Positions 1,315-35,482 of a DNA stretch of 64,000 bases are shown one piece after another. A program made the translations under genes and the position numbers. The stretch's first letter is position 1. Each line of letters starts with the position of its first letter. This DNA comes from Naegleria gruberi (taxonomy: Eukaryota). Below the pieces are notes generated by a model. The model searched no databases. It was given only the letters and a program-made list of their open reading frames with translations, and was not told the origin of the DNA. The DNA lies in the NCBI GenBank assembly GCA_000004985.1, contig GG738883.1; one strand, written 5' to 3'.

Positions 1315-1575
1315 TTTTTTATAAATATTTTACAACAATCCAAACCTCCAAACACACAATAAAACACGCTAAAGCNNNNNNNNNNNNNNNNNNNNNNNNN
1401 NNNNNNNNNNNNNNNNNNNNNNNNNNNNNNNNNNNNNNNNNNNNNNNNNNNNNNNNNNNNNNNNNNNNNNNNNNNNNNNNNNNNNNNNNNNNNNNNNNNN
1501 NNNNNNNNNNNNNNNNNNNNNNNNNNNNNNNNNNNNNNNNNNNNNNNNNNNNNNNNNNNNNNNNNNNNNNNNNNN

Positions 1576-2050
1576 CCAAACCAAACCCAAACCCAAACCC
1601 AAACCCAAACCCAAACCCAAACCCAAACCCAAACCCAAACCCAAACCCAAACCCAAACCCAAACCCAAACCCAACCCAAACCCAAACCCAACCCAAACCC
1701 AAACCCAAACCCAAACCCAAACCCAAACCCAACCCAAACCCAAACCCAAACCCAAACCCAAACCCAAACCCAAACCCAAACCCAAACCCAAACCCAAACC
1801 CAAACCCAAACCCAAACCCAAACCCAAACCCAAACCCAAACCCAAACCCAAACCCAAACCCAAACCCAAACCCAAACCCAAACCCAAACCCAAACCCAAA
1901 CCCAAACCCAAACCCAAACCCAAACCCAAACCCAAACCCAAACCCAAACCCAAACCCAAACCCAAACCCAAACCCAAACCCAAACCCAAACCCAAACCCA
2001 AACCCAAACCCAAACCCAAACCCAAACCCAAACCCAAACCCAAACCCAAA
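1576..2050. repeat. Second (internal) telomeric (CCCAAA)n tract, same orientation as the terminal tract, with a few CCCAA variant units
   Basis: Seen directly after the N gap ending at 1575. Variants cccaacccaaa near 1670-1730. Terminates in aacccacgactaaagtcagacccaacatttt, which matches the junction at 290-319 at 26 of 28 positions. Confidence 0.9.
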
Positions 2051-6713: not shown

Positions 6714-7750
6714 TTAGTCCAGAGAAAATAAGGTGTCTGTGAAATTCTTGCCAGCAAGACCCTCAGATCGTAGATAAGGAAATAAACTGTTGGTTTTCTT
6801 ATGTCTTGCACCAACCATGAGATCTGAAGTAGAAACACCTTTTCTAAGTCCTTCTGTGATGGCTCCAATTCTAATGCTGTGCCCAGAAACTCTCACATCT
6901 TGGTCAACCATACCCACCGCATTCTTGAGTATCTTAGAAATATCATTTGAATCAAGGAATTTGTTGTTTTCGTAGGAAAACAAAGGAGAATCGTCATCTT
7001 TAAATTCACGAACCAAATCCATATACGAATTTAGTAGGGTTATTGGGCAAAGACTTGGATTCTTTGTATTCTTGTCAATAGTAATTGGTTTTTCAATAAG
7101 GAAGAAATCAGTTTTGTGACCACTGAGGTCAATTTTGATTTTTCCATTCTTGAGAACCTTGATATAGGACCATTTTAAGCGCGCAACCTCACCAGGTCTT
7201 GCAAATAGTCTGAAACCAACCACTAGAATAGCAGAAGTGAGTCGAAAAGTGAAATTGTCCACTTTGTCTTTGCACTTCACATAATCAGTCAAATGTTTGA
7301 CTGTAATTGGATCTCTTTGAAGAGAAACTTTATCCGAGAGTGTATAAAGTTTCAGTACACCTTTTTTAACCTTAGAGTAGGAGGCAGAGATGGTAATGGG
7401 TTTGCCATCAAGGTTAGCAAAGAATTGAATTGCTGCTTGCACAGTTTTTGCTTTGTATCCTTGAATATTTATCAAGAGGTATGAGATGTAATATTCAATA
7501 GCTATAGGATCATCAATGGTGAGATCAAACACATTGATAAACCAGAGAAAACCACCATAAATTCTATTATAAGTTCTGAATGTTTTCTCAGCTATTGATG
7601 AAAGGATACTAAGATCCCTTATTGCTTGAACAACTTGCCATGCACTTGAACAACCAGGAAATTGGAAGTCTCGAACTTGTCTTGCAACTCTGACAAGGGC
7701 GTTATTATAAGCATCTTTCGGGAAACAGGTATTATCCTTTCTGATATCTT
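6714..7750 (-). CDS. Retroelement tyrosine recombinase (approximate span; C-terminal third of the 6714-8603 ORF)
   Basis: C-terminal region carries the YR catalytic pattern: ...ARPGEVARL... (Arg), ...HSIRIGAITEG... (H-x-x-R), ...SLFPYLRS (Tyr). The upstream two thirds of this ORF is an R/S-rich alternate frame of the RNase H region and is probably not translated in this frame. The 5' boundary is uncertain. Confidence 0.6.
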
Positions 7751-8599
7751 TAGCAAGACTGGAAACCATATCGAAGAGGGCCAGTCTGGAACTACAAATG
7801 TCGCTTTCGCTTCTGATTTTATGCAATGAACTAGAGCTTGAGATATCAGACCCAGAGGAGGAACACAATAACTCATCAGATTTTGTTCCCATGGATTCAA
7901 GAATGTGTCGTTCTCTATCCATGAGTTGAATTGAATTGTTGTGGTTGATTCCGATGTCGCGAATCTGTCCACATGGTGCTCTCCAAATTCTGTCTGAACT
8001 AGATGCAGTAGTTCTTGAGATGATTTCCATTCTGTTAAGCGACTCAGTCTGTCTGCTAGATTGTTCTCCTTTGAGGGAATGTAAATCACCTTTGAAATCC
8101 ACCATTTTCTTCTCATCAAGATCTTGTAGAGGTCTCTGGCGATTTGAGAGAGTTCTTCTATGACTCCGTAACCTCTCCTTATATAGGAAATTGCTGTAAC
8201 ATTGTCGCCTCTGATTTCGAATGCTTGTCCAGGACCATAAAGGTTTAACCGATCTGCTTGTGTGAAGAAAATGAGGAGTGTTTTTAACTCTTTCACATTG
8301 ATGTGTTCTGAGGAAGTGAATCTTCCAATTGTAATGGTTGACTCTGCGTGAATTCCATAGCCTGTTGGGCAGGCATCTGAATTCACTCGAATTGGGTTCG
8401 TTGAATTCAGTTCGAAGGGAATTCCACTGTTTTTCTGAATCAGATCTTTCAAAATATTTAGATCCTTCGCTGCACCTCTGAATATTCTCATTGATGCGTG
8501 CCAAGATTTGTCGTTTACTACTTTCACCATATCCTTCCGAAGACGAGCAAGAAAGGGAGCAAAGTAATGGTTTGCAGTACCCTGTATTCGTTGTTCCAA
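7619..8599 (-). CDS. Retroelement pol, RNase H plus conserved post-RNase-H domain typical of DIRS-group elements
   Basis: RNase H catalytic pattern DACPTGYG ... NVKELK ... IRGDNVTAISY ... ENNLADRLSR, then NPWEQNLMSYCVPPLGLISQALVHCI...FVVPDWPSSIWFPVLL. Confidence 0.65.
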   Translation of the reverse strand: MEQRIQGTANHYFAPFLARLRKDMVKVVNDKSWHASMRIFRGAAKDLNILKDLIQKNSGIPFELNSTNPIRVNSDACPTGYGIHAESTITIGRFTSSEHINVKELKTLLIFFTQADRLNLYGPGQAFEIRGDNVTAISYIRRGYGVIEELSQIARDLYKILMRRKWWISKVIYIPSKENNLADRLSRLTEWKSSQELLHLVQTEFGEHHVDRFATSESTTTIQFNSWIENDTFLNPWEQNLMSYCVPPLGLISQALVHCIKSEAKATFVVPDWPSSIWFPVLLKISERIIPVSRKMLIITPLSELQDKFETSNFLVVQVHGKLFKQ

Positions 8600-8860
8600 C
8601 CAAATTTTTTTAGAGTCGAGCCAATTTTATAAATATTTTAATATTATTTATTCTTCTGATGATATTTCGTCGCCACTTTATTCATCACTTCCACTTTGTG
8701 GATTCTGATGCATCATCTTCCTCATATTCTGATCCGCTGGTAGTATCGTCTTGGTAAATTCTTGGAAAGCTTTTGGAGTTTATGGTTTGATGGTTGGTAT
8801 TTCATCATCAACAGGAAGAAGATTCCAGTCAAAGAAACTTCCTGATGATGGGTTGTTGTA

Positions 8861-9514
8861 TTAATTTTCTAGCCAACTGCCATGTTGTTCAGTTGCTTCC
8901 AAATACCAGCTTGTGATTNNNNNNNNNNNNNNNNNNNNNNNNNNNNNNNNNNNNNNNNNNNNNNNNNNGGAAGTAACCTTCTTCAGGTCTATCTTTGTTG
9001 CCCACATTCCCTTCTGAACAAATTTCAAACATCTTTGAATGTTGTCCATCTTGAAGGAACTGTCCTTTATTCCTAAATTGACCTTCCTTAGGTCTAGAAT
9101 AAAGCGAAATTGATCCGAACCCTTCTTGGGTACAATGTTTATTGGGTTCAATATTGTTGAACTGTTTCCAATCTCTATTACATTGGAACTCAGCATCTCT
9201 TGGATTTCCTGATCCATCCAAGAGGTTTCCTTTGGAGAGAAATTCTTCCTTTGTTTGAATTCTTTCCAAAGGGTGGGATTTGAGTAGATTGGGACTCCAT
9301 TTCGAATCCAATCCACTATAAATGGGTTGAAGTTGTAACTCTCCCACTGAGGTACAAACTTGTTGAGACGGCAACCTACCAAGTCAGAGGTCTTGTTTGA
9401 AAGCTCCTCCACCATTGTTATTGTACTTTGGCTTGGAATCTCCTGACTTTTGAAAAGAGGAACCACTCTTGTTGTAATTGTTGAATGGCTTTGAATAGCT
9501 GTTAGGGATGCCAC
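8861..9514 (-). CDS. Retroelement pol, reverse-transcriptase N-terminal region (interrupted by N gap 8919-8968)
   Basis: Motif PKKGSDQFRFILDLRKVN (RT domain 1-2, F..DLR..N) seen in the translation. The gap explains the truncation. Confidence 0.6.
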   Translation of the reverse strand: MASLTAIQSHSTITTRVVPLFKSQEIPSQSTITMVEELSNKTSDLVGCRLNKFVPQWESYNFNPFIVDWIRNGVPIYSNPTLWKEFKQRKNFSPKETSWMDQEIQEMLSSNVIEIGNSSTILNPINIVPKKGSDQFRFILDLRKVNLGIKDSSFKMDNIQRCLKFVQKGMWATKIDLKKVTSXXXXXXXXXXXXXXXXXITSWYLEATEQHGSWLEN

Positions 9515-16293: not shown

Positions 16294-17320
16294 TTGAATG
16301 TACTTAGGACAATTATTACTGCTCAAAAGATAAATGGCCAATCAAAACTCATTCCAATCTATGGAGCTAATCTGTTCATATTTCAAAATGGCCAGTTTAT
16401 GAAATCTAACTTAATAGTGGATAAATACTCTTCCATTCAATGGAGACAATCTACATTAACTAACATCAACGCACCAGGTGGTATTGCCATTCACAACCAA
16501 AACATCATCTTCTCAGATTCGTACAACAATCGAATACTTTCGAATGGAACAATTATCACAATTGCTGGAAATGGTTGTAGCGGTTACAATGGAGATAACA
16601 TGTTAGCTACATCTGCTCAGATCCTAATGGCTTGGCAGTCAATTCTCTTGGTGAGATTCTAATTGATGACACGTATTACAATCGTATTCAAAAGATACTT
16701 TCGAATGGGACGATTATTACCGGTGATGAAACTTTCAATGGAGATGGTATTCTAGCAACGAGTGCCAATATTAAAAACCCAAATGATGTTGCAGTTGGTA
16801 AATTGGGAAGAAATTTACATTGCTGACAGCAACAATCGAATAAGAAAAATACTTTCGAATGGAATTATAACAACAATAGGAGGAACTGGCGCATGTGATT
16901 TCAATGGAGATGGCATGGATGCTACAACTTCCAATATGCTCTCCAACTGGTATTGTGATCAATTTGGTCAATTGTACATTGTTGATTTTATGAATGGAAG
17001 AATTCGTAAAATTTATACGAATGGAACCATTACAACAATTTTAATGGAGATGGAAAATTGGCATCCACTATGGAGCTAGTTATTGTACTGAAGTGATGGT
17101 AGGTCAGATATTGAAACAATCGAGTGGGGTACTGGATTATATTCACAAACAATTTGGGTAAGTTTTTGAAAATTCTATTGTAAATGTAAAATGGTAGAGT
17201 TATTCATAGAGATATCAAACCTAATGAATTAGCCGAGTTGGTATTGAGTATGTTGGAGAAGGATCCAGAGAAAAGACCGGATGCTAGCTCCATTTTGAAA
17301 CATAGTTACTTTAAAAAGTA
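16294..17320 (+). pseudogene. Gene-fragment mosaic: frameshifted NHL-repeat beta-propeller pseudogene followed by a spliced, internally deleted protein-kinase fragment
   Basis: NHL blades (NNRIRKILSNG[T]IITTI[GA]G[NT]G) occur in three different frames across 16294-17079. At 17103-17320, ...ILKQSSGVLDYIHKQFG|gtaagt...ggtag|VIHRDIKPNELAELVLSMLEKDPEKRPDASSILKHSYFKK stop. This is kinase subdomains VIa-VIb joined directly to subdomain XI, with no DFG/APE segment. Confidence 0.5.
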
Positions 17321-17380: not shown

Positions 17381-19462
17381 TTATACCATTGATTGCATGG
17401 ATTGAGAATCGGTCGTTGAATGTTGAGGAATATTTTGAACTGCTTTCTGATTCAAATTTTGGAATGTGTTGTGAACTTCAGTTAAAGATTCGGCTACTTG
17501 CTTCTCAACATGATCGAATAAATCCTCCGTAATAATATCAAAATCTGCATACTCATCTATTTGATTATTGAAAGAATCCAACTCTTTCACTAAGAGCTCA
17601 ACATCTGATATAGAAACTCTAGAAAGAATAGTTCTATTTTCTGTGAATTGTTCCAAATATTTCGTCCAGATATCAAATGCCATTTCTTGCTTTTGTTTCT
17701 CAATCTTTGTCAGTTTCTTATCACTCTTTCTAATGCTCTTTACAAATTCAGCCTTTCCTTCTTCATTCAAATTCTTTCCAAACACCAATTTTCCATTCTC
17801 TATTAATTCTTTTGATTTTTCAAAGAGTTCTACTTGTACCTGGACAGATTGATTACCTAGTTCCTTATATTGTCTCACTTCTTCCAGGAAGTTGAAACAA
17901 TCTTCAAGTTGACCATTACCTAAACAATAATTCTGGAAACGTTGCCTTTGAGCTGGATCCTTCATGGTATCTAGAACCATAACAGCATTAACAGTTTGGA
18001 GTTTGGTTTGATTGGCCGAAGAGGTCTTCAAGCTTATTGCAAATATCACAATAACCATTGGAATAACAATTAGAATGGACAATCCAAGCAATACCAATGA
18101 CGTAATATTTGAATAGTATCCAACATGTGTTGCAATGATACTATGATTAAACAAATTATCAAGAAATTGTGAAAGATACATCTGATCATTTGCTTCAGCA
18201 TTCATAAACTCTGAAGTGTTCATAAAGAACTGAGCTACTATCAAATTAGTCAATGGAGGTAGGTCTCTTGTTCCATTATTTCTGCCACCACCACCACCTG
18301 GCCTTCCTCCTCCTCCACCACCTCCTCCAGGAGGTCTATTTCCTCCTCCTCCACTGCCACCTTGATTGTAATATGAGCTATTTCTTAATTTATCACCCCA
18401 AGAACCAAGATTCATATTAGTTCCATTGAATGTCATATTGATGGTCAGTTCCCAAACGTTAAATATTTCCAAAGCTTGTAAAGCAGAGGTATTTCTAGAA
18501 CCATTCAAATATTGGTAATTATCATCAAAAGTTGGAAAATTATCCAAAATATTTTGAATTGAGCTTGTGAATGTTCTCTTACTTTTCTGGTAGAGCTGCA
18601 GAGGATACCTTGCTTGTACTGAACCACGATTGAAAGCTCCCAATCTGACAGCTGTCTTCATGTCATTGTAAGAAGAAATTGCTGTAGCTCTAGAAGTCAA
18701 AAGCTCAGCAACATGATACTCACTCACAGAAATATATTGTAAAATAGTAACAGCTGCAATACAAAGCAATACCAAAATATTAACTACAAGTGCCAAAACT
18801 GACATTAAAGAAACTAAACTAAACTTGACTTGCTTATATCTTCTTGGTAGACAACAACACAACATACTACAACAACATCCGCATGAAACCTTAGCAACTT
18901 CCAAATGTTTAAACATTTGCGCAATAGCTGAAAGTATACAAAACACAACCATTGCAAAACATGAAGGTTCCTTCTCAATTGTACCAGTTGTTGAACTATG
19001 TGTGTCCTTTCCAATATCATTTTCATTGAGGTCTTTGATAGCTTTACCTTTTCTTTTCAGAGAATCCTTGTCTATGGTTGGTCCCAAACCAATCGGTGAC
19101 ATGGTTGTGCCTCTCATTCCACCATACATTATTTCATCAATGGCCATCACACTATCATCATCATTTCCAATTAGGGAATCACAACTGAGATCTGTTTGTT
19201 GAGAGGAAAAATCATCGGTCATGGACATGCCACGTTCTCTTGTTAGGTTGGGAGAGAGGAATTGGGAAGAGGAGGTTTGTTGTTGTATGTCAAAGGAAGC
19301 TCTGTTCATTGTTGAATTGATCATTGGATTAGTATTCGAAATCAAACTATTCGTTTCTGTCATTCCTACTGTGAAACCTTGCTGGCTGCTTTCAATCTTC
19401 TCCTCTGCATTACCAGAAGATCCTTCCAGAGGAATAATTGTATTCTCACTACTCGTTAACAT
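17381..19462 (-). CDS. Multi-pass membrane protein (3 TM, Cys-cluster CGCCCSMLCCC, glycosylated Gly-rich ectodomain, helical cytoplasmic tail); paralog of 19883-21757
   Basis: ATG verified. TM segments FAMVVFCILSAIAQMF, LVSLMSVLALVVNILVLLCIAAVTILQYI, SLVLLGLSILIVIPMVIVIFAISL. Tail has weak RGS-like motif LEDCFNFLEEVRQYKEL (very tentative). Confidence 0.7.
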   Translation of the reverse strand: MLTSSENTIIPLEGSSGNAEEKIESSQQGFTVGMTETNSLISNTNPMINSTMNRASFDIQQQTSSSQFLSPNLTRERGMSMTDDFSSQQTDLSCDSLIGNDDDSVMAIDEIMYGGMRGTTMSPIGLGPTIDKDSLKRKGKAIKDLNENDIGKDTHSSTTGTIEKEPSCFAMVVFCILSAIAQMFKHLEVAKVSCGCCCSMLCCCLPRRYKQVKFSLVSLMSVLALVVNILVLLCIAAVTILQYISVSEYHVAELLTSRATAISSYNDMKTAVRLGAFNRGSVQARYPLQLYQKSKRTFTSSIQNILDNFPTFDDNYQYLNGSRNTSALQALEIFNVWELTINMTFNGTNMNLGSWGDKLRNSSYYNQGGSGGGGNRPPGGGGGGGGRPGGGGGRNNGTRDLPPLTNLIVAQFFMNTSEFMNAEANDQMYLSQFLDNLFNHSIIATHVGYYSNITSLVLLGLSILIVIPMVIVIFAISLKTSSANQTKLQTVNAVMVLDTMKDPAQRQRFQNYCLGNGQLEDCFNFLEEVRQYKELGNQSVQVQVELFEKSKELIENGKLVFGKNLNEEGKAEFVKSIRKSDKKLTKIEKQKQEMAFDIWTKYLEQFTENRTILSRVSISDVELLVKELDSFNNQIDEYADFDIITEDLFDHVEKQVAESLTEVHNTFQNLNQKAVQNIPQHSTTDSQSMQSMV

Positions 19463-19882: not shown

Positions 19883-21757
19883 ATGCCAACAGTCCAACTT
19901 GAAGAAATTGAATTACAAGAATCAGGGCAAACCACTAGCACTCAAATAGTACAAAAGGTGGACGAAGTTGCTCTTCAATCAACATCCAATAATGTTGCCA
20001 CTTCCAATTTGCTCGCTGTTCATAATGATTATACTCAATTGTCTAGTGTTGGATCCTCTGTTGGATCGTCAGTGATGAAATTTCAACAACAGGAATCTGC
20101 TATCATCACTGCTGGAAAGGCAAACTCAACTACTGGTCTATCTGTTGGTGAATCAAGATCTGCCATTTCAAAGAGAACTGCCACATCTCTGAAAACATCA
20201 AAAACTAAAACATCCAGAACTTCTACCTCTGTTAGGTTGCGTACTTGTTGTGGTACAATTGAATTGAACTGTGTGAGATTAATATCCTTAATCGGTATGA
20301 TTGTTAATATTGTTGCATTCTTTGTCATTCTAGCAATGACCATCCAAACATTCGTAATTACTAGCGCTCCAGTTGTTGACATGTTGGTCAACTTTGGTGA
20401 TGTTCAAATTGCTTATCAAGAAACTACAAGTAGTGTCTACAAGGGAGTCATTTTACAAAGCAATGATACTGCCTTTTCATGGTATTCCAATAAGGATCGA
20501 TTGATAGATTCCTTAAACCAATTACTCACACTAGTTCCCGCAGGAACTGCCAATGGAATTCTGAATGGTTCCTCTGATGCACAATCTCTTCCAATCCTTG
20601 CCACTCACAAAGCAATCATTGATACTGTTGTCTACCTGGGTGATTACAATGCCAGCTCTGCAATGATGCAAAGGAACATGTCCAAATCGACAGAAAGATG
20701 GGACAGAGGAATGAAGTACTTTATGGAAACAGTTTCCAATTTGGCCCAAAGTCAATACAACAGTATCATTTCCTCCATGACAACCAATCTTGTGGTCATT
20801 AGTGTTTGTCTTGTGGTTGCAATTCCTGTATGCATTGGAATCTTTGTCATGACCATCAAGAGAGAAAGAGAACTCTCCGAAAAGTTGAAACATGCCAATA
20901 TTGTTCTGCTGATGAATACTATGGCTGATCCATTCTTTAGGGATTTGTTTGGTGATTATTGCAATTTACACAAACCTTCCACATATTCTCGTTTCAAGTT
21001 ACTAGAAAAGTTGCAACACATCAAGATGAGTATTAGAAAACTCATTACACTCTCATTGCATCGTGATGATGCCAATTCCAACTCGAGTTATGGCAATTTG
21101 GATTCACAAATATCATCATCAAGTTTAAGCTCCACCACAACAATAGGAGAAGGTGAAGAAGAAGTTTCCATCCGTAGAAAACTCTACAAACATTTGGTCG
21201 AATTGAATGATGAATTTGTTGAACCTCAGACTGTTGCTGCTTCCAAGAAGAAGAATTTGAATAATAATATTCATCTTGATGATTTCTTCAATATCAGACA
21301 CATGATAGAAGACTTTGAACCAATAACAACAACAAACAATCATCATGGAGGAAATGACAATAATCATAAAGAATCAACACCACTCACTCCTCACACTCCC
21401 TTCTTCCAATTCCAATCCTCTCTGCTGACTGCCTCTGTAGCTGGAAGCTCTGCAGGTTCTTCATTGTTGGGTGGAAGTACATTGCTGGGTGCTGGAAATC
21501 AACAGGCCGGAACAAGTAGTAGCAGCTTTGGAAGTGTTATGAATGGAGGTAATAACAATAGAAAGAAACAAACCAAGCTAGAGGTCTATTCAAATTTGGT
21601 GGATCAGGCTCAAGGCTATGTCGGTGAAGGTTTGTTGCCAATTCACGATAAGTTTAAAAAGCAATTACAATTCCCTGCCAATACTAGAAAGCTCATGTTG
21701 AAGAATTATCGAATCATGTTCAAACAAGAGTTGGAAACGCTGTTGCAAACAAAGTAA
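19883..21757 (+). CDS. Multi-pass membrane protein, divergently transcribed paralog of 17381-19462
   Basis: ATG verified. Aligns with the neighbour over the TMs and juxtamembrane region (NLVVISVCLVVAIPVCIGIFVMTIK...NTMADPFFRDLFGDYC versus SLVLLGLSILIVIPMVIVIFAISLK...DTMKDPAQRQRFQNYC). Starts are 420 bp apart. Confidence 0.7.
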   Translation: MPTVQLEEIELQESGQTTSTQIVQKVDEVALQSTSNNVATSNLLAVHNDYTQLSSVGSSVGSSVMKFQQQESAIITAGKANSTTGLSVGESRSAISKRTATSLKTSKTKTSRTSTSVRLRTCCGTIELNCVRLISLIGMIVNIVAFFVILAMTIQTFVITSAPVVDMLVNFGDVQIAYQETTSSVYKGVILQSNDTAFSWYSNKDRLIDSLNQLLTLVPAGTANGILNGSSDAQSLPILATHKAIIDTVVYLGDYNASSAMMQRNMSKSTERWDRGMKYFMETVSNLAQSQYNSIISSMTTNLVVISVCLVVAIPVCIGIFVMTIKRERELSEKLKHANIVLLMNTMADPFFRDLFGDYCNLHKPSTYSRFKLLEKLQHIKMSIRKLITLSLHRDDANSNSSYGNLDSQISSSSLSSTTTIGEGEEEVSIRRKLYKHLVELNDEFVEPQTVAASKKKNLNNNIHLDDFFNIRHMIEDFEPITTTNNHHGGNDNNHKESTPLTPHTPFFQFQSSLLTASVAGSSAGSSLLGGSTLLGAGNQQAGTSSSSFGSVMNGGNNNRKKQTKLEVYSNLVDQAQGYVGEGLLPIHDKFKKQLQFPANTRKLMLKNYRIMFKQELETLLQTK

Positions 21758-22030: not shown

Positions 22031-23563
22031 ATGAGCAACAACACAAACTCTTCTTGTGGTGCCTTTCTCTTCACTTCTATATCTGTTGAAAGCAATCCAG
22101 AGCAGCTGGGAAACATCTGTCCAGATACCATCATCAATTATCTTGTGGCAGCAATCATCTTGACATTGGCATTATTCTTCTTCACATCAAGTCTTATCAT
22201 GCTAATCATTTATGGTTGGAAAAACAGACAAATGAAACAAAGTAAAATACAGACAGAGAGGTTGGCCTATGTTAGAGCAAGAAATCCAATCATCATGCTG
22301 GTTAATCTTTTCACTTCGGCTGGTATTGCAACATTTCACACTTTGCGATATCTGATTGGTAGAAAGATATTTCCATGCGGCTTGTTAAGTTTATCCTACT
22401 TTCTGATACCTCCTGTAATATTCCTTCCAACACTGTTAAGATCCTCACGAGCATTTAACATGGCAAGAATCAATTCTCTCATCACCAGTACAAGAAGAAG
22501 AAAGACACTCTCAATTGATAGTAATGGAAAGTCAATAATATTCGAACAAGCAATGCCAAACATTGCTTCTAATCCAACAACCATAGATGAAGAACTTGCA
22601 GATAGTAATACTAATTCTCCGAACAAACAATCAGAACAGCAACCACAACCAACAACACCTAGGAAAGTGGAATTTAAATTTGATATCAATGAACAACAAC
22701 AACAACAACAACCAACAACAGAGAATACCTTCTCAGATACTGAATCGGATGTTGGAAGTCTATATGATATTGAAACTTCTATTAGCAAATCCATAATTAA
22801 TCAGCTGAAAATTCTGAATATCCTAATTTCCAACAAATTCATATTCATCCTCTATTTTGCAGTGTTGAGCTGTCATGTACTATTGTGGTTAGTATTGGGT
22901 GGTATAGAAGAGGGAATCTATCAATCTAATCCATCACAATCAAGGATTTTTGCTGGTTTCCTCCACTTTACAAGTGGTTGTGTTGTGAATATTAATGGTG
23001 TGGTTGTAGTGATTTGTCAGGCAGTTCTCTACTTGATAGCTGAAATCATCTTGCTGATTTTGCACTTCATCTCTGAGAGGGATACTTACTACATTAAATT
23101 GGAAACATTCATAGTTGTTGGAATGCAAGTGGGAGTGACTCTGATATTTGGATTGAGTTATATTGGAGCCATCAATCGGTACACTGAATACTTCTATGCA
23201 GGTGGTAATATCATTGCTTCCTTTGCAGTTCTGGAATTGTTGGTGAGTAATTTCCTTCCTCTCGTCCTCTCCTATTATAATGATAGTAGAATTGTTTCGT
23301 CGAGGAAATCCACTGCTGCTGCATCAGAAACAATAAGGAGAATGACAATGGATGATACTCAACCACAACAAACATCACCTATTGCTGCTGATGATGAGGA
23401 GAATCAAATAGGAGGAATTTCTGATAATAAGGCAGAAGATAGAGGAAGTTTATATGGAATTTTGGATGCTGCTTCCACTTCTGCTATTCTCATCTTGTTG
23501 AGACACAAAAAGTATAGTGAGCAATTCTTATTGTATGCTCAGAGAAGTTATTGTCCTGAGAAT
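22031..23563 (+). CDS. 7-TM receptor-like protein with C-terminal RGS domain, exon 1 (7TM body, Q/N-rich loop, start of RGS)
   Basis: ATG verified. Seven hydrophobic segments. Exon ends ...SEQFLLYAQRSYCPEN|gtatgt (phase 0). Confidence 0.7.
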
Positions 23564-23680
23564 GTATGTTTTTGTTATTAATTCAATATTTACACTATTA
23601 ATTATAATAATCCATCTAAATATTAATAATATATAAATTCCGATACTGATAATGATAATAATGATGAAAATACTAAATAG

Positions 23681-24013
23681 ATACTTTGTTGGAGAGATAT
23701 CGAAGCCTACAAGAAAGTAAAGAAAGATGCAAGTAGGAGAAGAATTGGGCAATTCATCTTGGGAACCTACTTAATTCATCACTCACCATTAGAATTGAAT
23801 ATTAGCAAAGAGGATAAGAGGGTTCAAGAGATTGAACAAGTGCTGACGAACAAATCGCTTCCTCTCCGTGCCGATCTCTTCGATTTCCTCCAACTTCATT
23901 GTCTACTCAACATGTTGGATATTTTCGAGCGCTTAAAATCTAGTAATAAGGAAATTAGAGAGTATTTGAAAGGAAGTAAGGCAGCAACCCCCTCGACGGG
24001 TAATTTAAATTAA
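23681..24013 (+). CDS. 7TM-RGS protein, exon 2 (remainder of RGS domain)
   Basis: Acceptor ...aatactaaatag at 23680; in-frame. ILCWRDIEAYKKVKKDASRRRIGQFILGTYLIHHSPLELNISKEDKRVQEIEQVL...MLDIFERLKSSNKEIREYL matches the RGS consensus (EN.l.FW..ve.yKk ... a..Iy..fi...ap..vNid...r ... F...q..i...m..D.y.RFlkS..y..l). Confidence 0.7.
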   Translation: MLCWRDIEAYKKVKKDASRRRIGQFILGTYLIHHSPLELNISKEDKRVQEIEQVLTNKSLPLRADLFDFLQLHCLLNMLDIFERLKSSNKEIREYLKGSKAATPSTGNLN

Positions 24014-24467: not shown

Positions 24468-25088
24468 ATGACATTGGAAATTGTTTACTTTGGTATGGCA
24501 GGTCGTGGTGAAGTCTTGAAATTGATTGCTGAAGCAGGTCAGGTAGAATATGTTTTCACACCTGTTAAGTATGAAAATTGGTCGAGTTTGAAACCAAGTA
24601 CTAGATATGGTCAACTTCCAATGTTGAAGATTAATCAAGATGTTACTCTCTATCAAACTATTTCAATAGCTAGATATTTGGCTCAAGAAGGTGGCTTGTA
24701 TCCATCAGATCGAATTGAGGCAAGTTTATCTGAAGAATATGTTGCAGCTGTTGATGAGATTATCGCTGGATTTGTGACAGTTTTCTTTAAAACTCCTGAA
24801 GAAAAGAGACCTGAAGCATTGAAGAGTTTTAGTGAAGGCGTATTAAAGACAATTCTCAATGCCTTGGATAAGGTATTGGAAAAGAACGGAGATTACCATT
24901 TGATTAAGGGAAAGCTCACTTGGGCTGATTTGTTTCTCTTTGATATTGTTGGAAATTTGAGAATGAGAGGAATTGATATTTCATTTGCTTCTAATGTTGC
25001 CAAAATGATTGACAATATTAAGGAAAATAATGAAAGAATTAAATCATTCTTGGAGAGTGATAGAAATTTGAGAAAACCAACTCAATAA
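24468..25088 (+). CDS. Glutathione S-transferase (sigma/alpha-like, thioredoxin-like N-domain plus helical C-domain)
   Basis: ATG verified. YFGMAGRGEVLKLIAEAGQVEY...YGQLPMLKINQDVTLYQTISIARYLA is the canonical GST N-domain G-site pattern. 206 aa. Confidence 0.85.
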   Translation: MTLEIVYFGMAGRGEVLKLIAEAGQVEYVFTPVKYENWSSLKPSTRYGQLPMLKINQDVTLYQTISIARYLAQEGGLYPSDRIEASLSEEYVAAVDEIIAGFVTVFFKTPEEKRPEALKSFSEGVLKTILNALDKVLEKNGDYHLIKGKLTWADLFLFDIVGNLRMRGIDISFASNVAKMIDNIKENNERIKSFLESDRNLRKPTQ

Positions 25089-25164: not shown

Positions 25165-28023
25165 TTATTGAACAACAAAAGTCATCTTTTGAACATTACC
25201 AGTTGCAGAACTCTTCATCTTTTCAATAACTTCTTCCTTAATCTTTTCTCTTTCCAATACTTGATAAGAAATGATACCAAAGAATTTACCTAAAGTATTT
25301 CCGTTACCAGTCAAGATACCCTTATGCATGGCCTTGATGTTATCACCAGCATAGGTGGCGACAATATATTTGAAGAGAGTAATTCCTCCACTTTCCTTAC
25401 ATCTTACTCTGAAAATAATGTGGAACATGCTGTCATCAGTCAACTCTGGCATGAATTCCTTGAAACGAAGTCCCTTCTTGTAGAAGAGCATCTTGTTATT
25501 AATCTTTCCATCCTTATAATAGAGAACAATGTAGCTGGACTTCTTTTGACTGTGATTATGGAGCTTTTCATATTCTGAGAGGTCTGTATCACCATCATCA
25601 ACATCCATATCCAAATTATCCATTGAATCATCAAATCCAAGTAATTCTTCACCTCTCAACATGTCAAATACTGAAAGGACATTGTAATCGACGTTAATTC
25701 CTTCAAATGATTGATAACGAGTACCAGATTCATCTTCTGTTGCAGTTGACTTGGAAAGGAGATCTTGCATGACCTTACTCATTTGAGAAAGTTCTGCATT
25801 TTTCTTTTCCTCTTCCTCTTTAGCTCTTCTACGTTCTTCCTCTTCCAATTCTGCCTTTCTTCTACGTTCTTCTTCCTCAATTTGGGCTTTTCTCTTTCTT
25901 TCGTCTTCTTCGAGTTGAGCTTTTCTTTTACGTTCGTCTTCTTCTAATTGTGCCTTTCTCTTTCTTTCATCTTCCTCTAATTGGGCTTTTCTCAAACGAT
26001 CTTCTTCTTCCTTCTTCTTCCTGTCTTCTTCATCCTTCTTACGTCTGGCTTCCTCTTCTTGTCTTTTCTTTTCTTCTTGTTCTCTCCTCATCTTTTCTTC
26101 CAATTCTCTACGTTTACGTTCTTCTTCTTCCTTCTTGGCCAATTCAAGTTGAGAATTGTTGAGAGAGTTAATGAGATTTTGAATTTGATCTTCTAAATGT
26201 TTGACCTTTTCCTTGAGTTCATTAACTTGCTTTTCATTTTGATCTTTGGCAAGTGACAAATCAGTGAGGTTCTTCTTTTCCAATTCAGAAAACTTTTCAG
26301 TAATTTGCTTTTTCAATTCTTGATGAGAATATCTCAACTTGTCTTCAATAGTTGAGCAAACAGTACATTGAACCATTAATTCTTGATCTCCTGAATTGAC
26401 AACTGAATTATTGACATCCTTATTCTTTGGTTCAGTTGGAACAATCCAATAAGCAGAATCCTCAAAGGTCTTTTCAGGACTCATCACAAAAAGCCACTTG
26501 TTATAGACGAATCCATGCAAGAAACCACCAGCAATTGATGTCACAACTGTAATACAGAGAGCACAGATTTGGAATCCCCACAAATTAGTATACTTGGATC
26601 CAAACATTGTCTTGGTATCATCGCCATAGATTTTTACCTTTGCTGCATTGTCAATGGCATTACCTGTGGCTACAATGCTAACCAAACCACCATACACACC
26701 AATCAATAAATGGGTTGAGAATACATTGGAAGTGTCGTAAATTCTCAAATGTTTGATGAGTGGTTGTAAGACACACAAACCCAATCCAGTCAATGCACCA
26801 GCAACAAGACCAATGGTTAAGGCACCTCCTGGTGAAACAATGACTGATTGAACGGAGGCCATTGAGATACCACCAACGATGGCTCCTCTCTGTAAATCTC
26901 TCATTGAGAATCTTCCTCTCAGCAAACGCATAACCACGAAATGGATAACACAACTTGCAGCCATAGCAATGAATGTGGTCATTTGAGCTCTGTATTGATA
27001 TTGAGCATTGGAAATCAAAGCAGCATTGAAAGATGGCATCAACACCCACAATAAAACAGTTCCAATAATTGCAATCATGTCAGATGCCTTACTATGATGA
27101 TTTTCAAATACCTTACTTTGGAAAACCGATGGTTTGTACAATGACCAAGAAGCTGCCAATCCATAACAAGCACCAAATACATGAATAAACATGGAACCAC
27201 CATAATCAATAGCTCCCAATACCAAAATAATACAGAAATAATTCACACTATAAATGAAAACCTCTGAAAATGCCATTAAAATCAATTGAACTGGACTTGT
27301 TTTTCCAATCACACAACTTGTACTAATCAAAACAGCAAAAGCTCCATAAAAACCATGAACCAACCACTTCATATCCAAATAAATAACCGTATTAAATACA
27401 GTTTCATTCTTGGCATCTTTCAAAGTTGCATATTCCATAATCTTTGACCAAAATCCTTGAGCAATTATTGAGAATTGAAAACTCAAAGCTGCCAATAAAA
27501 TTGTCATTCCAATCGTGTGATATTGAGCATTCTTAATGCAACTCATTGAAAGTCCTAATCCTAATAATGTCATCATGGCAACATCAATCAAATTCTTGTA
27601 ATCACCAATTTGTGAGCTAGTGGAAGATGTTGGAAATTCAAAGAAAATCCAAAACATGCTCACATAGAATAATTCGAATAGAACAAGATAGAAAACGAAT
27701 GAAAATTTTTCAATATCGTATTCTCTACTAGCTATCCATTCGGTAACTTTTTCCTTCACGGTCTTTTCTTCTTGTGGTTTCTTCTCCAAATCAAAATTAA
27801 AATTACTACTCGATTCTAATTGAATAGTCGATTCTCCTCCACCTTCTTTCTTCTTCATAGACGCTGTCAACCCTTTAATTTTCTTCACACCATAATAAAT
27901 AAAACATCCGATCAAGTAAATAAAGTAAACGATTAGAAAAACGCTGGAAATTACAATTCCAGAAATGTAACGGTTCTTGTTGGTGGCAAGAGTCTCGGCG
28001 ATTGTGCTGTTGGTAGAGTTCAT
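25165..28023 (-). CDS. Rh50-type (Rhesus/Amt superfamily) ammonium transporter fused to a long E/K/R-rich helical segment and a C-terminal globular domain (952 aa)
   Basis: ATG verified. 11-12 TM. Rh-family signature DYGGSMFIHVFGACYGLAASW. Residues ~600-720 are KEEEERKRRELEEKMRREQEEKKRQEEEARRKKDEEDRKKKEEEDRLRKAQLEEDERKRKAQLEEDERKRKAQLEEDERKRKAQIEEEERRRKAELEEEERRR (encoded by 33-bp tandem repeats around 25800-26000), then a ~200-aa tail. Confidence 0.85.
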   Translation of the reverse strand: MNSTNSTIAETLATNKNRYISGIVISSVFLIVYFIYLIGCFIYYGVKKIKGLTASMKKKEGGGESTIQLESSSNFNFDLEKKPQEEKTVKEKVTEWIASREYDIEKFSFVFYLVLFELFYVSMFWIFFEFPTSSTSSQIGDYKNLIDVAMMTLLGLGLSMSCIKNAQYHTIGMTILLAALSFQFSIIAQGFWSKIMEYATLKDAKNETVFNTVIYLDMKWLVHGFYGAFAVLISTSCVIGKTSPVQLILMAFSEVFIYSVNYFCIILVLGAIDYGGSMFIHVFGACYGLAASWSLYKPSVFQSKVFENHHSKASDMIAIIGTVLLWVLMPSFNAALISNAQYQYRAQMTTFIAMAASCVIHFVVMRLLRGRFSMRDLQRGAIVGGISMASVQSVIVSPGGALTIGLVAGALTGLGLCVLQPLIKHLRIYDTSNVFSTHLLIGVYGGLVSIVATGNAIDNAAKVKIYGDDTKTMFGSKYTNLWGFQICALCITVVTSIAGGFLHGFVYNKWLFVMSPEKTFEDSAYWIVPTEPKNKDVNNSVVNSGDQELMVQCTVCSTIEDKLRYSHQELKKQITEKFSELEKKNLTDLSLAKDQNEKQVNELKEKVKHLEDQIQNLINSLNNSQLELAKKEEEERKRRELEEKMRREQEEKKRQEEEARRKKDEEDRKKKEEEDRLRKAQLEEDERKRKAQLEEDERKRKAQLEEDERKRKAQIEEEERRRKAELEEEERRRAKEEEEKKNAELSQMSKVMQDLLSKSTATEDESGTRYQSFEGINVDYNVLSVFDMLRGEELLGFDDSMDNLDMDVDDGDTDLSEYEKLHNHSQKKSSYIVLYYKDGKINNKMLFYKKGLRFKEFMPELTDDSMFHIIFRVRCKESGGITLFKYIVATYAGDNIKAMHKGILTGNGNTLGKFFGIISYQVLEREKIKEEVIEKMKSSATGNVQKMTFVVQ

Positions 28024-28434: not shown

Positions 28435-29499
28435 TTATTTATCATCACTTGTTGGTTGTTCGTGGAAAATTTGTTCCATAAATGAATTGCAATCACTTTT
28501 GAGAGTTGCACAATCGATGAATCCTAGAGAATTAGTTTTGGCATTTGGTCCATTTTGAGAGAAATCATGGAGGTTGACATTGAGGCAACTTTGCATGTGA
28601 TCGATACAGAAACAGGACGAAACTGGGATGAATAAACTTTGCCATTGCCTTACGCATTGTTCTGTAGTTTGAGTTTCTAATAAGCATTCGATTAAATCAT
28701 CATGTTCCTCATCGTAGAATGTATGAATAAGTGTGGAAAGTCTGGTTTGATTTTTCCTTTTAGATAATTTCTTGTCGTATTTCAAACTTTCAAATCCTAA
28801 TGCTACATCATCCGATTCTTCATTTTCTGGTTTTTCTTCCTTCTTAGTTTCCAATAATTGAGAAGAAACATTCTCACTTGCTTCTCTATTTTGCATATTT
28901 TTCATTTCATCTTGCTTAATTCTATTCATAATTGTCAATTCTCTATAAAAGGTATTATACATTGAATTGGGTGTGTTCCATTCCCTAAATGATTTGGCAA
29001 ATTTTGAGAAACGAGCCATCGTATTGACATCATTTCTGAAACATTTCAAAACTTTGGTGTGAATTGCCTTAAACATTGAAAATTTAGCTGCCTTTGCACG
29101 CATCAATTTCGATTGAGTTAACATTAATTGAATTTCCTCAGCAGTTGGCAAGCACGACTGTTCCTCAGGTTTAATCTTTTCAGCTAATTGTTGTGTAACT
29201 GCAGCTAGTGTTGTTGGTTCTTCAACATTGACATGATTGGCAAGTGTCATTTTGGAAATAATTGTTTCAGTTTCATGTGAATTTCTCTTTTTTCGGAATC
29301 CTTGTTCTCTCGATTGTTCATCTTCCAAAGCTCGAAACGTTTCCGAAAGTTCACATGATTTCTTCAATGCCAACAAGACATCCTCAGGTACTTGTGATTG
29401 TAATATTAAATTATGATTTAAATACTTGTTGTTACATTGATAAACTGCTGATAGATAGGAAATTAATAATTTCTTAGATAAATTATCACTAGATGACAT
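28435..29499 (-). CDS. Hypothetical protein (354 aa), no recognised domain
   Basis: ATG verified. Long intact ORF with A-rich context. Confidence 0.5.
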   Translation of the reverse strand: MSSSDNLSKKLLISYLSAVYQCNNKYLNHNLILQSQVPEDVLLALKKSCELSETFRALEDEQSREQGFRKKRNSHETETIISKMTLANHVNVEEPTTLAAVTQQLAEKIKPEEQSCLPTAEEIQLMLTQSKLMRAKAAKFSMFKAIHTKVLKCFRNDVNTMARFSKFAKSFREWNTPNSMYNTFYRELTIMNRIKQDEMKNMQNREASENVSSQLLETKKEEKPENEESDDVALGFESLKYDKKLSKRKNQTRLSTLIHTFYDEEHDDLIECLLETQTTEQCVRQWQSLFIPVSSCFCIDHMQSCLNVNLHDFSQNGPNAKTNSLGFIDCATLKSDCNSFMEQIFHEQPTSDDK

Positions 29500-34345: not shown

Positions 34346-35482
34346 TCAATTGAAAATTAAAACCTGATTCTTCTCACAATCCACAAGATATAATTCTCCA
34401 GTCTTGTCATTGATGCACATTCCATCGGGCAGTTCAAAATTTTCCTCAACTTGTGAATCATTCTTAAAAGTTCGTACAGTTTTAACATTCTTTCCTTCAG
34501 AATCCATAATGGCAATGGTTGAGGTTCCTTCACTAACAAAGATATGTCTCTTAACTGGATCAAACATGACATAGGAAGGACACTGAGTGTGTAAGCTCTT
34601 CTTACTAACGAGAACATCACCAACTTTGTAAAGAAAGTGAAGATTAGGGGCAAAGGATGGGTTATGCTCTATCATAATAATGTCTTCGTTTTGGTCTAGG
34701 CAAATTCCAATAGGTTGTCTTAATGAACTGTGTAAATACTCATCTGCATAATCATTGTCCTCTTGCACTAAATGAGATGGGATAAATGTTGTGAAAGTTT
34801 CAATTAGAGAGCCATCACTCGATGCAAATGTTAGGATTTTGTTATTGCCTGTATCACACAAGAGAATGATTGCATTCTCATCCATTTTACACTTTTCATT
34901 CTTATACTTGTTCGAATACGAAACAGCAATACCACTAGGCAATTCAAGTTCATATTCCTCATCATTTGTCTCTCCAATTTTCCAGACATATCGCAATGCT
35001 TTACCTTCAAGAGCATCACCAATCATTTCAGCCAAATCAAACTTGTATAAAAATCCAGACTCTACACTCAAATATAAATATTCCTTCTCCCTTCTCTTAT
35101 CCATTTCAATGGCCAAATATCTCGTGACGTGACCAATCTTGATAGTACACTTTAATTCACAACTCTCCAAATCCAATATCTGCAATGATTCATTCTCCGA
35201 ATCACTCACAATAATACACCCACTCAAATGAGAAATCTTTACATCATACGGAAGGAGAAATCCAGATCGAATCAAACTCTTCTTCTCAAACAAGGTAGAA
35301 TACGGCAGAGGATGATACAATTTTCGGAACAAGAGTTTTGATTTTAGAAAATTAAAACTTGTTGTTTGCCGTAATGGTGCATCTCCGACCATGAGAGTAG
35401 TAGTTTTAGATGTATTTTCATTATTTAATAACTGTTCCGATTCTTGATAATGATGAGTAGTTAGTTGATCATGAGTAGACAT
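34346..35482 (-). CDS. NHL-repeat-like beta-propeller protein (378 aa)
   Basis: ATG verified. Repeated blade-like motifs PSGIAVSYSN, LLCDTGNNKILTF, PIGICLDQNEDIIMIE, PDGMCINDKTGELYLVDCEKNQVLIFN. Confidence 0.5.
   Translation of the reverse strand: MSTHDQLTTHHYQESEQLLNNENTSKTTTLMVGDAPLRQTTSFNFLKSKLLFRKLYHPLPYSTLFEKKSLIRSGFLLPYDVKISHLSGCIIVSDSENESLQILDLESCELKCTIKIGHVTRYLAIEMDKRREKEYLYLSVESGFLYKFDLAEMIGDALEGKALRYVWKIGETNDEEYELELPSGIAVSYSNKYKNEKCKMDENAIILLCDTGNNKILTFASSDGSLIETFTTFIPSHLVQEDNDYADEYLHSSLRQPIGICLDQNEDIIMIEHNPSFAPNLHFLYKVGDVLVSKKSLHTQCPSYVMFDPVKRHIFVSEGTSTIAIMDSEGKNVKTVRTFKNDSQVEENFELPDGMCINDKTGELYLVDCEKNQVLIFN

What the first reader, a model, noticed from the sequence alone, without database searches (positions are those of the whole stretch)
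22031..24013. Seven-transmembrane protein with a C-terminal RGS domain split by a 117-bp intron
Hand splicing (gtatgt...aaatag) joins the 7TM body to a textbook RGS box (SEQFLLYAQRSYCPEN-ILCWRDIEAYKK...RRRIGQFILGTYLIHHSPLELNISKEDKRVQEIEQVL...DIFERLKSSNKEIREYL). This is the AtRGS1-like architecture, a receptor-GAP that regulates G-alpha directly.

This architecture is uncommon outside plants and a few protists. It sits next to the paralog pair that also has RGS-like tails.
Basis: partly seen in the sequence, partly recalled or inferred. Interest (0 to 1): 0.55.

Follow-up and report, generated by a model that had tools for sequence, protein, structure and literature searches.

The report
Naegleria seven-helix receptor with RGS tail
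This is a real two-exon gene of the amoeba Naegleria gruberi that joins a GPCR-like seven-helix membrane domain to a G-protein "off-switch" (RGS) domain, and it is one ordinary member of a large family of such proteins already described in Naegleria.

Summary
Exon 1 (22031-23563), a 117-nt GTATGT...AAATAG intron (23564-23680) and exon 2 (23681-24013) give a 621-aa protein. Pfam RGS scores 33.3 bits against a cut-off of 23.9, and the match runs across the splice junction.

No RNA data were available, so the splice rests on comparison:
- Paralogues read SYCPENIL straight through the junction.
- A family HMM that never saw exon 2 matches exon 1 up to position 469 and exon 2 from position 468.
- An environmental orthologue keeps both splice sites around a 119-nt intron, which shifts the frame if unspliced. 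dN/dS is 0.12.

The window is the published N. gruberi genome. N. gruberi is reported to have 229 RGS genes. N. fowleri has 28 7TM-RGS proteins, three of which have shown GAP activity. The family here has at least 98 strong relatives; every named one checked is heterolobosean.

So the AtRGS1-like architecture is right, but it is not rare in this lineage. The most likely function is a membrane receptor-type GAP for Galpha; this is inferred, not shown. Interest is low.

The parts
22031..23563 (+). Exon 1 (511 codons): short N-terminal ectodomain, 7TM body, linker, and the first ~27 residues of the RGS box
   Evidence: ORF with ATG at 22031 and an upstream in-frame stop at 21995. The family HMM matches it at positions 8-469.
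22031..22129 (+). N-terminal extracellular segment (aa 1-33)
   Evidence: It has no Lys or Arg, two N-x-S/T sequons (N3, N6), and Cys9 and Cys30 (ICPDT motif), which align with Cys in paralogue P0001, the only one of the two whose model reaches this region. Read from the sequence; alignment.
22130..22237 (+). TM1 (aa 34-69)
   Evidence: AF2 helix with pLDDT >90; hydropathy peak at 42-60.
22286..22357 (+). TM2 (aa 86-109)
   Evidence: AF2 helix; hydropathy.
22376..22450 (+). TM3 (aa 116-140; the helix continues into the cytoplasm to aa 164). It starts at the near-invariant Pro115-Cys116.
   Evidence: AF2. Cys116 is conserved in 44 of 45 ungapped family sequences.
22451..22831 (+). Long second cytoplasmic loop (aa 141-267), Ser/Thr/Gln/acidic-rich and low-complexity; aa 168-248 are predicted disordered
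   Evidence: pLDDT <50 over 168-248. The loop varies in length and sequence among paralogues.
22832..22927 (+). TM4 (aa 268-299)
   Evidence: AF2; hydropathy.
22928..22990 (+). Second extracellular loop (aa 300-320) with invariant Gly316-Cys317, the likely disulfide partner of Cys116
   Evidence: G316 and C317 are invariant in 48/48 sequences. The disulfide itself is inferred.
22991..23071 (+). TM5 (aa 321-347)
   Evidence: AF2.
23078..23158 (+). TM6 (aa 350-376), preceded by the conserved (D/E)RDT(W/Y) motif at the TM5-TM6 turn (ERDTY in this protein)
   Evidence: AF2. D351 is conserved in 46/48 sequences.
23201..23275 (+). TM7 (aa 391-415; the helix continues into the cytoplasm to aa 440)
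   Evidence: AF2. P410 is nearly invariant.
23351..23482 (+). Disordered cytoplasmic linker (aa 441-484)
   Evidence: pLDDT <50 over 450-483. It is an insertion relative to the paralogues.
23483..23563 (+). RGS box, 5' part (aa 485-511), ending in ...SYCPEN. Glu510 and Asn511 are the equivalents of RGS4 Glu87 and Asn88.
   Evidence: Pfam RGS match starts at aa 489. Alignments to RGS16 and RGS2 and to RGS4.
23564..23680 (+). Phase-0 spliceosomal intron, 117 nt, GTATGT...ACTAAATAG
   Evidence: 16% GC and three in-frame stops. In the orthologous contig L001 both splice sites are conserved, but the intron interior is 63% identical with 20 gap columns, and its length there is 119 nt. The same 3' end (AAATAG) is seen in the calnexin intron at 51942-51740.
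23681..23962 (+). RGS box, 3' part (aa 512-605): ILCWRDIEAYKK..., PLELN (Asn551 is the equivalent of RGS4 Asn128), ...MLDIFERLKSS
   Evidence: Pfam match to aa 589. The family HMM matches positions 468-568. Asn551 equivalent is 42/42, and the D and R of D.FERL are 39/42 (the other 3 are Glu) and 42/42 in the family.
23963..24013 (+). Short C-terminal tail (aa 606-621, Ser/Thr-containing) and TAA stop (24011-24013)
   Evidence: The stop is conserved in the orthologue. Identity drops from 87% to 50% immediately after it.

Best explanation
This is a functional two-exon gene of Naegleria gruberi that encodes a 621-aa membrane protein.

The protein has a short glycosylatable extracellular N-terminus and a GPCR-fold seven-helix bundle. 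A conserved Cys116-Cys317 pair probably links the top of TM3 to the second extracellular loop. A long disordered second cytoplasmic loop and a flexible linker follow, and then a cytoplasmic RGS box.

The most likely mechanism is that of a receptor-type GTPase-activating protein. The RGS box, held at the membrane by the 7TM body, binds the switch regions of GTP-bound Galpha subunits and accelerates hydrolysis. This keeps fast-exchanging ('self-activating') or receptor-activated Galpha switched off. An extracellular cue sensed by the 7TM bundle, or phosphorylation of the disordered loop or tail, would then change that GAP activity or remove the protein from the surface.

Shown here: gene structure, splice, domain identity, fold, topology signals, purifying selection, and family membership.

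Inferred: GAP activity, the Galpha partner, and regulation by a ligand.
For: **Splice**
- The junction restores SYCPEN|ILCW, collinear with paralogues. It is the only one of 40 frame-preserving GT/AG pairs to do so.
- A family HMM built without this exon 2 matches exon 1 at positions 8-469 and exon 2 at 468-568.
- The orthologous ENA contig L001 has conserved GT and AG sites, a 119-nt intron that is not a multiple of three, 87% exon identity against 63% in the intron, 28 of 42 exon-2 substitutions at third codon positions, and dN/dS 0.12 over 172 codons across the junction.

**RGS box**
- Pfam scores 33.3 bits against a cut-off of 23.9.
- The family profile hits RGS16, RGS10, RGS5, RGS2 and RGS4 in the PDB.
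- Equivalents of RGS4 Glu87, Asn88 and Asn128 are present in this protein. The Glu87 and Asn128 equivalents are invariant in the family.

**7TM body**
- AF2 gives pLDDT 76.9 and pTM 0.74, with seven helices at pLDDT around 90 or higher.

**Topology**
- There is no Lys or Arg in aa 1-33, which carry two N-glycosylation sequons.
- Lys/Arg residues are concentrated in loops 1, 3 and 5 and after TM7 (read from the sequence using the helix limits).

**Precedent**
- N. fowleri has 28 7TM-RGS proteins. Isolated RGS domains of three of them accelerate GTP hydrolysis on Nf Galpha2, 3, 5 and 7. That activity is lost with the switch-I Gly-to-Ser mutation, tested on Galpha2 and Galpha3 (PMC9283941).
- N. 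gruberi has more than 30 Galpha subunits and 229 RGS genes (PMC5784254).
Against: - No transcript evidence for the splice was available; support is comparative only.
- No Galpha gene lies in the window, so there is no partner hint from gene context.
- The N. fowleri proteins tested biochemically have adhesion-GPCR-like ectodomains (EGF repeats, lectin domains, GPS motifs). They are therefore a different subfamily from this short-N-terminus protein.
- The Asn88 equivalent is variable in the family (Ser is commonest), so GAP competence across the family is not guaranteed. This member does keep Asn.
- The alignment of the last two RGS helices to RGS4 Asp163/Arg167 is ambiguous. HMMER's gapless register places His584/Asn588 there, while the invariant D591/R595 need a 7-residue-longer helix 8.
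- Nothing shows that the 7TM bundle binds a ligand.
Confidence: 0.78

Rival explanations
1. It is a true GPCR, acting as a ligand-activated exchange factor for slow-exchanging Galpha subunits. Its built-in RGS tail only sharpens signal termination, as proposed for GPCR fusion proteins and fungal class VI GPCRs. On this reading it is not an AtRGS1-style constitutive brake.
Against: No sequence-level match to any Pfam 7TM receptor family. No exchange-factor activity has been shown for any 7TM-RGS protein in the papers read here. The two roles are not mutually exclusive.
Confidence: 0.12
2. The RGS box does not act as a GAP. It serves as a Galpha-binding or scaffold module, as the RGS-homology domains of GRKs or mammalian RhoGEFs do, making the protein a Galpha effector or anchor.
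For: The domain is divergent: 33 bits to Pfam and E of about 0.02 to the best single PDB sequences. The Asn88 equivalent varies within the family. The register of the helix 8-9 contact residues is uncertain.
Against: This member keeps the Glu87, Asn88 and Asn128 equivalents. In N. fowleri even the RGS-RhoGEF uses a canonical, GAP-competent interface.
Confidence: 0.07
3. The intron is not removed. The locus makes a 516-aa seven-helix protein that stops five codons into the intron (stop at 23579-23581), and the downstream RGS-like piece is a decaying remnant.
For: No RNA evidence was available. Neither the spliced nor the unspliced product is found by exact look-up in the 15-billion-protein collection.
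Against: Exon 2 is under purifying selection: 89% aa identity to the orthologue, a third-position substitution bias, and dN/dS 0.12. Both splice sites are conserved while the intron interior and length drift. The family HMM joins the two pieces at adjacent positions.
Confidence: 0.03

Closest known systems
Naegleria fowleri 7TM RGS proteins (28 genes; Nf 7TM RGS1-4 studied; Bosch, Jeck & Siderovski 2022, PMC9283941)
   Same: Same genus and same architecture: a seven-helix body with a C-terminal RGS box. The tested RGS boxes are GAPs for Naegleria Galpha subunits, including self-activating ones, through a canonical switch-I-dependent interface.
   Different: The four studied proteins carry large adhesion-GPCR-like ectodomains (EGF repeats, lectin domains, GPS motif), whereas this protein has only ~33 extracellular N-terminal residues. 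Direct homology to Nf 7TM RGS1-4 was not tested because their sequences were not at hand. Named relatives found here are from N. gruberi, N. lovaniensis, Willaertia magna and Acrasis kona.
Arabidopsis AtRGS1 (plant 7TM-RGS)
   Same: Same domain order and predicted topology: N-terminus outside, seven helices, cytoplasmic RGS box, then a short Ser/Thr-containing tail. The same proposed logic applies, a membrane GAP restraining self-activating Galpha.
   Different: Homology of the 7TM body to AtRGS1 was not established: Pfam has no model for it, and the AlphaFold database library was unavailable. This protein has a ~125-residue disordered second cytoplasmic loop and a class C-like helix bundle. 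The glucose/WNK8/endocytosis regulation known for AtRGS1 is not implied here.
Class C GPCR 7TM domains, especially GPR158 and GPR156 (GPR158 recruits RGS7-Gbeta5)
   Different: Only 10-14% sequence identity. There is no Venus-flytrap or Cache ectodomain. Here the RGS box is part of the same polypeptide rather than a recruited partner.
Fungal class VI GPCRs (GprK/GprR type, 7TM plus RGS; PMC10794492) and 7TM-RGS proteins of Trichomonas, chytrids, filastereans and ichthyosporeans (PMC3971589)
   Same: The same two-domain architecture, reported across many eukaryotic lineages.
   Different: No sequence relationship to these was tested here. All named members checked of the family found with the profile are heterolobosean.

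Membership tests
RGS domain (Pfam PF00615) | Score at or above the curated gathering threshold of the family HMM | tested here: met
   33.3 bits against a cut-off of 23.9, residues 489-589, model positions 5-100 of 117. Paralogues score 24.1 and 45.1 bits.
RGS domain (Pfam PF00615) | Galpha-contact residues equivalent to RGS4 Glu87, Asn88 and Asn128 | tested here: met
   Glu510, Asn511 and Asn551 align with them. RGS4 numbering comes from a sequence recalled from memory, whose length and landmark residues are self-consistent. The Glu and the second Asn are invariant in the family.
RGS domain (Pfam PF00615) | Helix 8-9 contact residues equivalent to RGS4 Asp163 and Arg167 | tested here: inconclusive
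   Invariant Asp591 and Arg595 (D.FERL) fit only if helix 8 is 7 residues longer. HMMER's register puts His584/Asn588 there. The spliced sequence could not be submitted for structure prediction.
RGS domain (Pfam PF00615) | GTPase-accelerating activity on a Galpha subunit | not testable with these tools
   Needs a biochemical assay. Precedent exists only for N. fowleri paralogous proteins (PMC9283941).
7TM-RGS receptor-GAP architecture (AtRGS1 / Naegleria 7TM RGS class) | Seven membrane-spanning helices N-terminal to the RGS box in one polypeptide | tested here: met
   [not shown]
7TM-RGS receptor-GAP architecture (AtRGS1 / Naegleria 7TM RGS class) | Topology with the N-terminus outside and the RGS box in the cytoplasm | tested here: met
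   By the positive-inside rule and the position of sequons only. There is no Lys/Arg and there are two N-x-S/T sites in aa 1-33. There are 7 Lys/Arg in the TM1-TM2 loop, many in the TM3-TM4 loop, and 5 just after TM7 (sequence, helix limits). This is a prediction, not an experiment.
7TM-RGS receptor-GAP architecture (AtRGS1 / Naegleria 7TM RGS class) | 7TM body homologous to that of plant RGS1 | not tested
   The AtRGS1 sequence and model were not available; the afdb50 library was offline. Pfam has no hit in the 7TM region.
Heterolobosean 7TM-RGS gene family (P0001, P0002, P0123-P0187 and others) | Full-length collinear similarity, including the signature motifs ICPD(T/S), GRKIFPC, GC in the second extracellular loop, DRDTW, RSYCPE..LCW, PLELN and D.FERLK | tested here: met
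   32% identity over 97% of the length to P0001, E = 1e-88. A profile search gave 866 hits at E <= 1e-3 and 98 at E <= 1e-30. The motifs are seen; this protein has ERDTY at the DRDTW position.
Class C GPCR | Sequence membership (Pfam 7tm_3) and a large ligand-binding ectodomain | tested here: not met
   No 7tm_3 or other receptor family hit at E <= 1. The ectodomain is only ~33 residues. The similarity is of fold only.

The most novel reading that the evidence does not exclude
The heterolobosean family to which this gene belongs is an independent fusion of a class C-like GPCR bundle to an RGS box. That would make it convergent with plant AtRGS1 rather than descended from one ancient 7TM-RGS. 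In addition, this particular locus may lack a correct public protein model: neither the spliced nor the unspliced product is in the 15-billion-protein collection, although both flanking N. gruberi genes are.
Probability: 0.3. Interest if true: 0.3.

Novelty: new member of a known kind. Interest (0 to 1): 0.15.

Why it matters
It matters little beyond annotation. It adds one well-supported two-exon gene model to the already very large RGS and 7TM-RGS repertoire of Naegleria.

It also supplies a few family features that could guide experiments on how these receptor-GAPs sense cues:
- a conserved TM3 to extracellular-loop-2 cysteine pair;
- the (D/E)RDT(W/Y) motif at the TM5-TM6 turn;
- a class C-like helix bundle.

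That question is still open, both for Naegleria (PMC9283941) and for 7TM-RGS proteins in general.

Tried and rejected
The N. gruberi paralogue loci could therefore not be checked for a shared intron position.
Only the exon-1 product was modelled, and the RGS box of this protein has no model.
- **The AlphaFold database fold library** was unavailable, so there is no structural comparison with AtRGS1.
- **Organism identity.** From a calnexin ORF I first inferred an unsequenced relative of Naegleria (70% identity to N. fowleri). That was wrong. The flanking genes are 100% identical to N. gruberi NAEGRDRAFT_80560, 80561, 70195, 50811, 70197 and 50813.
- **The word-indexed homology search** found only 2 relatives, whereas the exhaustive profile search found 866.
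- **A literature search** for the probable accession of this locus (EFC41762 / XP_002674506 / D2VMM8) found nothing.
- **Galpha genes.** No Galpha gene or second family member was found in the window: Pfam on the large ORFs tested gave no Galpha domain, and the six-frame HMM scan found no second family member.
Full report
**1. What is in the sequence**

The + strand carries an ORF that starts at ATG 22031, with an in-frame stop upstream at 21995. It runs 511 codons to 23563, where GTATGT follows. Read straight on, the frame stops after five more codons, giving a 516-aa product.

Removing 23564-23680 joins the frame to 23681-24013, which ends in TAA. The removed stretch is 117 nt, GTATGT...ACTAAATAG, with three in-frame stops. 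Its GC content is 16%, against 37% and 38% in the two exons. The spliced product is 621 aa.

**2. Is the splice real?**

No transcript data were available, so I used comparison. Four lines of evidence agree.

- *Junction sequence.* Among 40 GT/AG pairs in the neighbourhood that keep the frame open to the TAA, only 23564/23680 gives ...QRSYCPEN|ILCWRDIEAYKK. That string is collinear without any indel with the two N. gruberi paralogues found first, P0001 (...SYCPENILCFKDIQIYKR) and P0002 (...SYCTESVLCWRDIQRFKK).
- *Family HMM.* I built an HMM from 48 sequences in which this window contributes only exon 1. It matches the exon-1 segment at model positions 8-469 and the exon-2 segment at positions 468-568. 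The two pieces are therefore adjacent parts of one protein with nothing missing between them.
- *Orthologous contig.* The exhaustive protein search returned a 115-aa ORF (P0200) that is 89% identical to exon 2 from its very first residue. It sits on a 1054-nt environmental contig (ENA ERZ12289978, locus L001), which aligns with the window across the junction. Identity is 87% in both exon parts, 63% with 20 gap columns in the intron, and 50% after the stop codon. GTATGT and AG are conserved. The intron there is 119 nt, so in that organism the two exons are in different frames and only splicing rejoins them.
- *Selection.* Of 42 substitutions in exon 2, 28 are at third codon positions. dN/dS over 172 codons spanning the junction is 0.12.

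In addition, the calnexin gene in the same window has a probable 203-nt intron ending in the same AAATAG. I consider the splice established short of RNA evidence.

**3. The RGS box**

Pfam PF00615 scores 33.3 bits (gathering cut-off 23.9) over residues 489-589, so the match runs across the junction. The domain alone hits RGS16, RGS2 and RGS10 in the PDB at E of about 0.02. A three-sequence family profile hits RGS16, RGS10, RGS5, RGS2, RGS3 and RGS4 at E from 3e-6 to 3e-3.

In these alignments CPEN aligns with SEEN, and LELNIS with KEVNID. Aligned to RGS4, Glu510, Asn511, Trp515 and Asn551 correspond to Glu87, Asn88, Trp92 and Asn128. The RGS4 sequence was written from memory; it is 205 aa and its landmark residues fall at the published numbers.

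Across 48 family members the Glu and the second Asn are invariant. The Asn88 position varies, with Ser the commonest residue; this protein keeps Asn.

The register of the last two helices is uncertain. The invariant Asp591 and Arg595 (D.FERL) look like RGS4 Asp163 and Arg167, but only if helix 8 is seven residues longer. HMMER's gapless register puts His584 and Asn588 there instead. The domain is a real RGS box, divergent rather than textbook, with the core GAP residues in place.

**4. The seven-helix body**

Hydropathy gives seven segments. AlphaFold2 on the exon-1 product with a 48-sequence alignment gives mean pLDDT 76.9 and pTM 0.74. The helices are at 34-69, 86-109, 116-164, 268-299, 321-347, 350-376 and 391-440, mostly at pLDDT above 90. 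Residues 168-248 and 450-483 are disordered.

Cys116 at the start of TM3 and Gly316-Cys317 in the loop between TM4 and TM5 are essentially invariant in the family. That is where the canonical GPCR disulfide lies, but the bond itself is an inference.

Topology signals agree with an extracellular N-terminus and a cytoplasmic C-terminus. Residues 1-33 have no Lys or Arg and carry two N-x-S/T sequons. The TM1-TM2 loop has 7 Lys/Arg, the TM3-TM4 loop has many, and the stretch after TM7 has 5. The three putative outer loops have 3, 1 and 1 (sequence, helix limits). The RGS box is therefore predicted to face the cytoplasm.

**5. Where the window comes from, and the family**

From a calnexin ORF I first inferred an unsequenced relative of Naegleria (70% identity to N. 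fowleri). That was wrong. The ORFs at 17381-19462(-), 19883-21757(+), 24468-25088(+), 25165-28023(-), 28435-29499(-) and 34346-35482(-) are identical, residue for residue, to N. gruberi proteins NAEGRDRAFT_80560, 80561, 70195, 50811, 70197 and 50813. All lie on one 371,401-bp scaffold. The window is the published N. gruberi genome.

The accessions of the + strand neighbours are EFC41761.1 and EFC41763.1. A model EFC41762.1 (D2VMM8) therefore probably exists for this locus. However, neither the 621-aa nor the 516-aa product is in the 15-billion-protein collection. No N. gruberi protein more than 33% identical came back from either search. I cannot tell whether the public model is absent, different, or simply not in the collection.

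The exhaustive profile search found 866 relatives at E <= 1e-3 and 98 at E <= 1e-30, many of them covering both the helix bundle and the RGS box. Every named relative checked is heterolobosean: N. gruberi (several), N. lovaniensis, Willaertia magna and Acrasis kona. The rest are unnamed environmental sequences.

**6. What is already known**

- Bosch, Jeck and Siderovski (PMC9283941) describe 28 seven-transmembrane RGS proteins in N. fowleri. They show that isolated RGS domains of three of them accelerate GTP hydrolysis on Nf Galpha2, 3, 5 and 7, including two self-activating subunits. The interface is canonical and is broken by the switch-I Gly-to-Ser mutation, tested on Galpha2 and Galpha3.
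- De Mendoza et al. (PMC3971589) report 7TM-RGS architectures in many bikonts and in chytrids, filastereans and ichthyosporeans.
- N. gruberi is credited with 229 RGS genes and over 30 Galpha subunits (PMC5784254).
- Fungal class VI GPCRs also carry RGS domains (PMC10794492).

The architecture is thus common in this lineage and well beyond plants.

**7. Mechanism**

The best-supported reading is a membrane receptor-type GAP. The RGS box, tethered under a GPCR-fold bundle, deactivates Galpha-GTP. A cue sensed by the bundle, or modification of the disordered Ser/Thr-rich loop and tail, would modulate that activity.

The gene structure, domains, fold and selection are shown. The GAP activity, the partner and the regulation are inferred from the conserved residues and from the N. 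fowleri precedent. That precedent concerns paralogous proteins with large adhesion-type ectodomains, not this short-N-terminus subfamily.

Three rivals remain: a true exchange-factor GPCR with a self-limiting RGS tail, a non-catalytic RGS scaffold, and an unspliced truncated product. The first two cannot be excluded without biochemistry. The third is very unlikely given section 2. No Galpha gene lies in the window.

**8. The neighbouring pair**

The genes at 17381-19462(-) and 19883-21757(+) are weak paralogues of each other: 32% identity over 81 residues around the second membrane helix, E = 2e-10. Each appears to have two membrane segments flanking an ectodomain, followed by a cytoplasmic tail; this is read from the sequence and was not tested.

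UniRef names both 'RGS domain-containing protein'. None of my tests supports an RGS fold for the tails:
- Pfam gives no RGS hit even at E <= 10.
- hhalign against the family RGS profile gives probabilities below 1%.
- An AlphaFold model of one tail has pLDDT 58 and matches only helical hairpins.

That part of the finding remains open.

**9. Verdict**

The object is an ordinary member of a known, very large gene family in a published genome. At most, it is a locus whose protein model is missing from the collections searched. Interest is low.

Noticed in passing
[not shown]
   Followed up: partly
window 25165-28023 (-): NAEGRDRAFT_50811 (952 aa) combines an ammonium-transporter domain (aa 135-512), a long Glu/Lys/Arg-rich repeat region, and a C-terminal cofilin/ADF actin-binding domain (aa 816-935). 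A transporter fused to an actin-binding domain looked unusual to me; I did not check whether it is known.
   Followed up: no
window 50609-52320 (-): A calnexin gene in two exons with a probable 203-nt intron (51942-51740, GTTTGT...AAATAG). No N. gruberi calnexin protein came back from the large database; the best hits were N. fowleri at 70% and N. lovaniensis at 69%. This multi-exon gene also lacks a retrievable public model.
   Followed up: partly
L001 (ENA ERZ12289978, NODE_29250, 1054 nt): An environmental metagenome contig carries the orthologue of the target gene at 87% nucleotide identity in the exons. An unsequenced close relative of N. gruberi is therefore present in that sample. Other ENA contigs hold near-identical copies of neighbouring genes (P0276, P0278, P0280).
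   Followed up: partly
window 6714-8603 (-), near N runs at 320-369, 1376-1575, 2771-4005, 8919-8968: A 629-aa ORF with a sub-threshold match to the phage-integrase (tyrosine recombinase) family, 24.1 bits against a cut-off of 27.1. It sits in a stretch broken by assembly gaps and may be a tyrosine-recombinase mobile element.
   Followed up: no
window 47390-49429 (+): A phosphoinositide-specific phospholipase C (X, Y and C2 domains) lies about 23 kb downstream. It is a possible G-protein effector class, but there is no evidence linking it to the target gene.
   Followed up: no
window 1-2000: Strongly negative GC skew (-0.48 to -0.71) with elevated GC next to assembly gaps. The ORFs at 379-1314 and 1319-2092 on the - strand were not examined.
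   Followed up: no
window 16294-17079 (+), 34346-35482 (-), 62676-63956 (-): Several ORFs with NHL repeats. The one at 62676-63956 also has teneurin-like EGF repeats. The one at 16294-17079 was judged by eye only. They may belong to a dispersed family of secreted or surface proteins.
   Followed up: no
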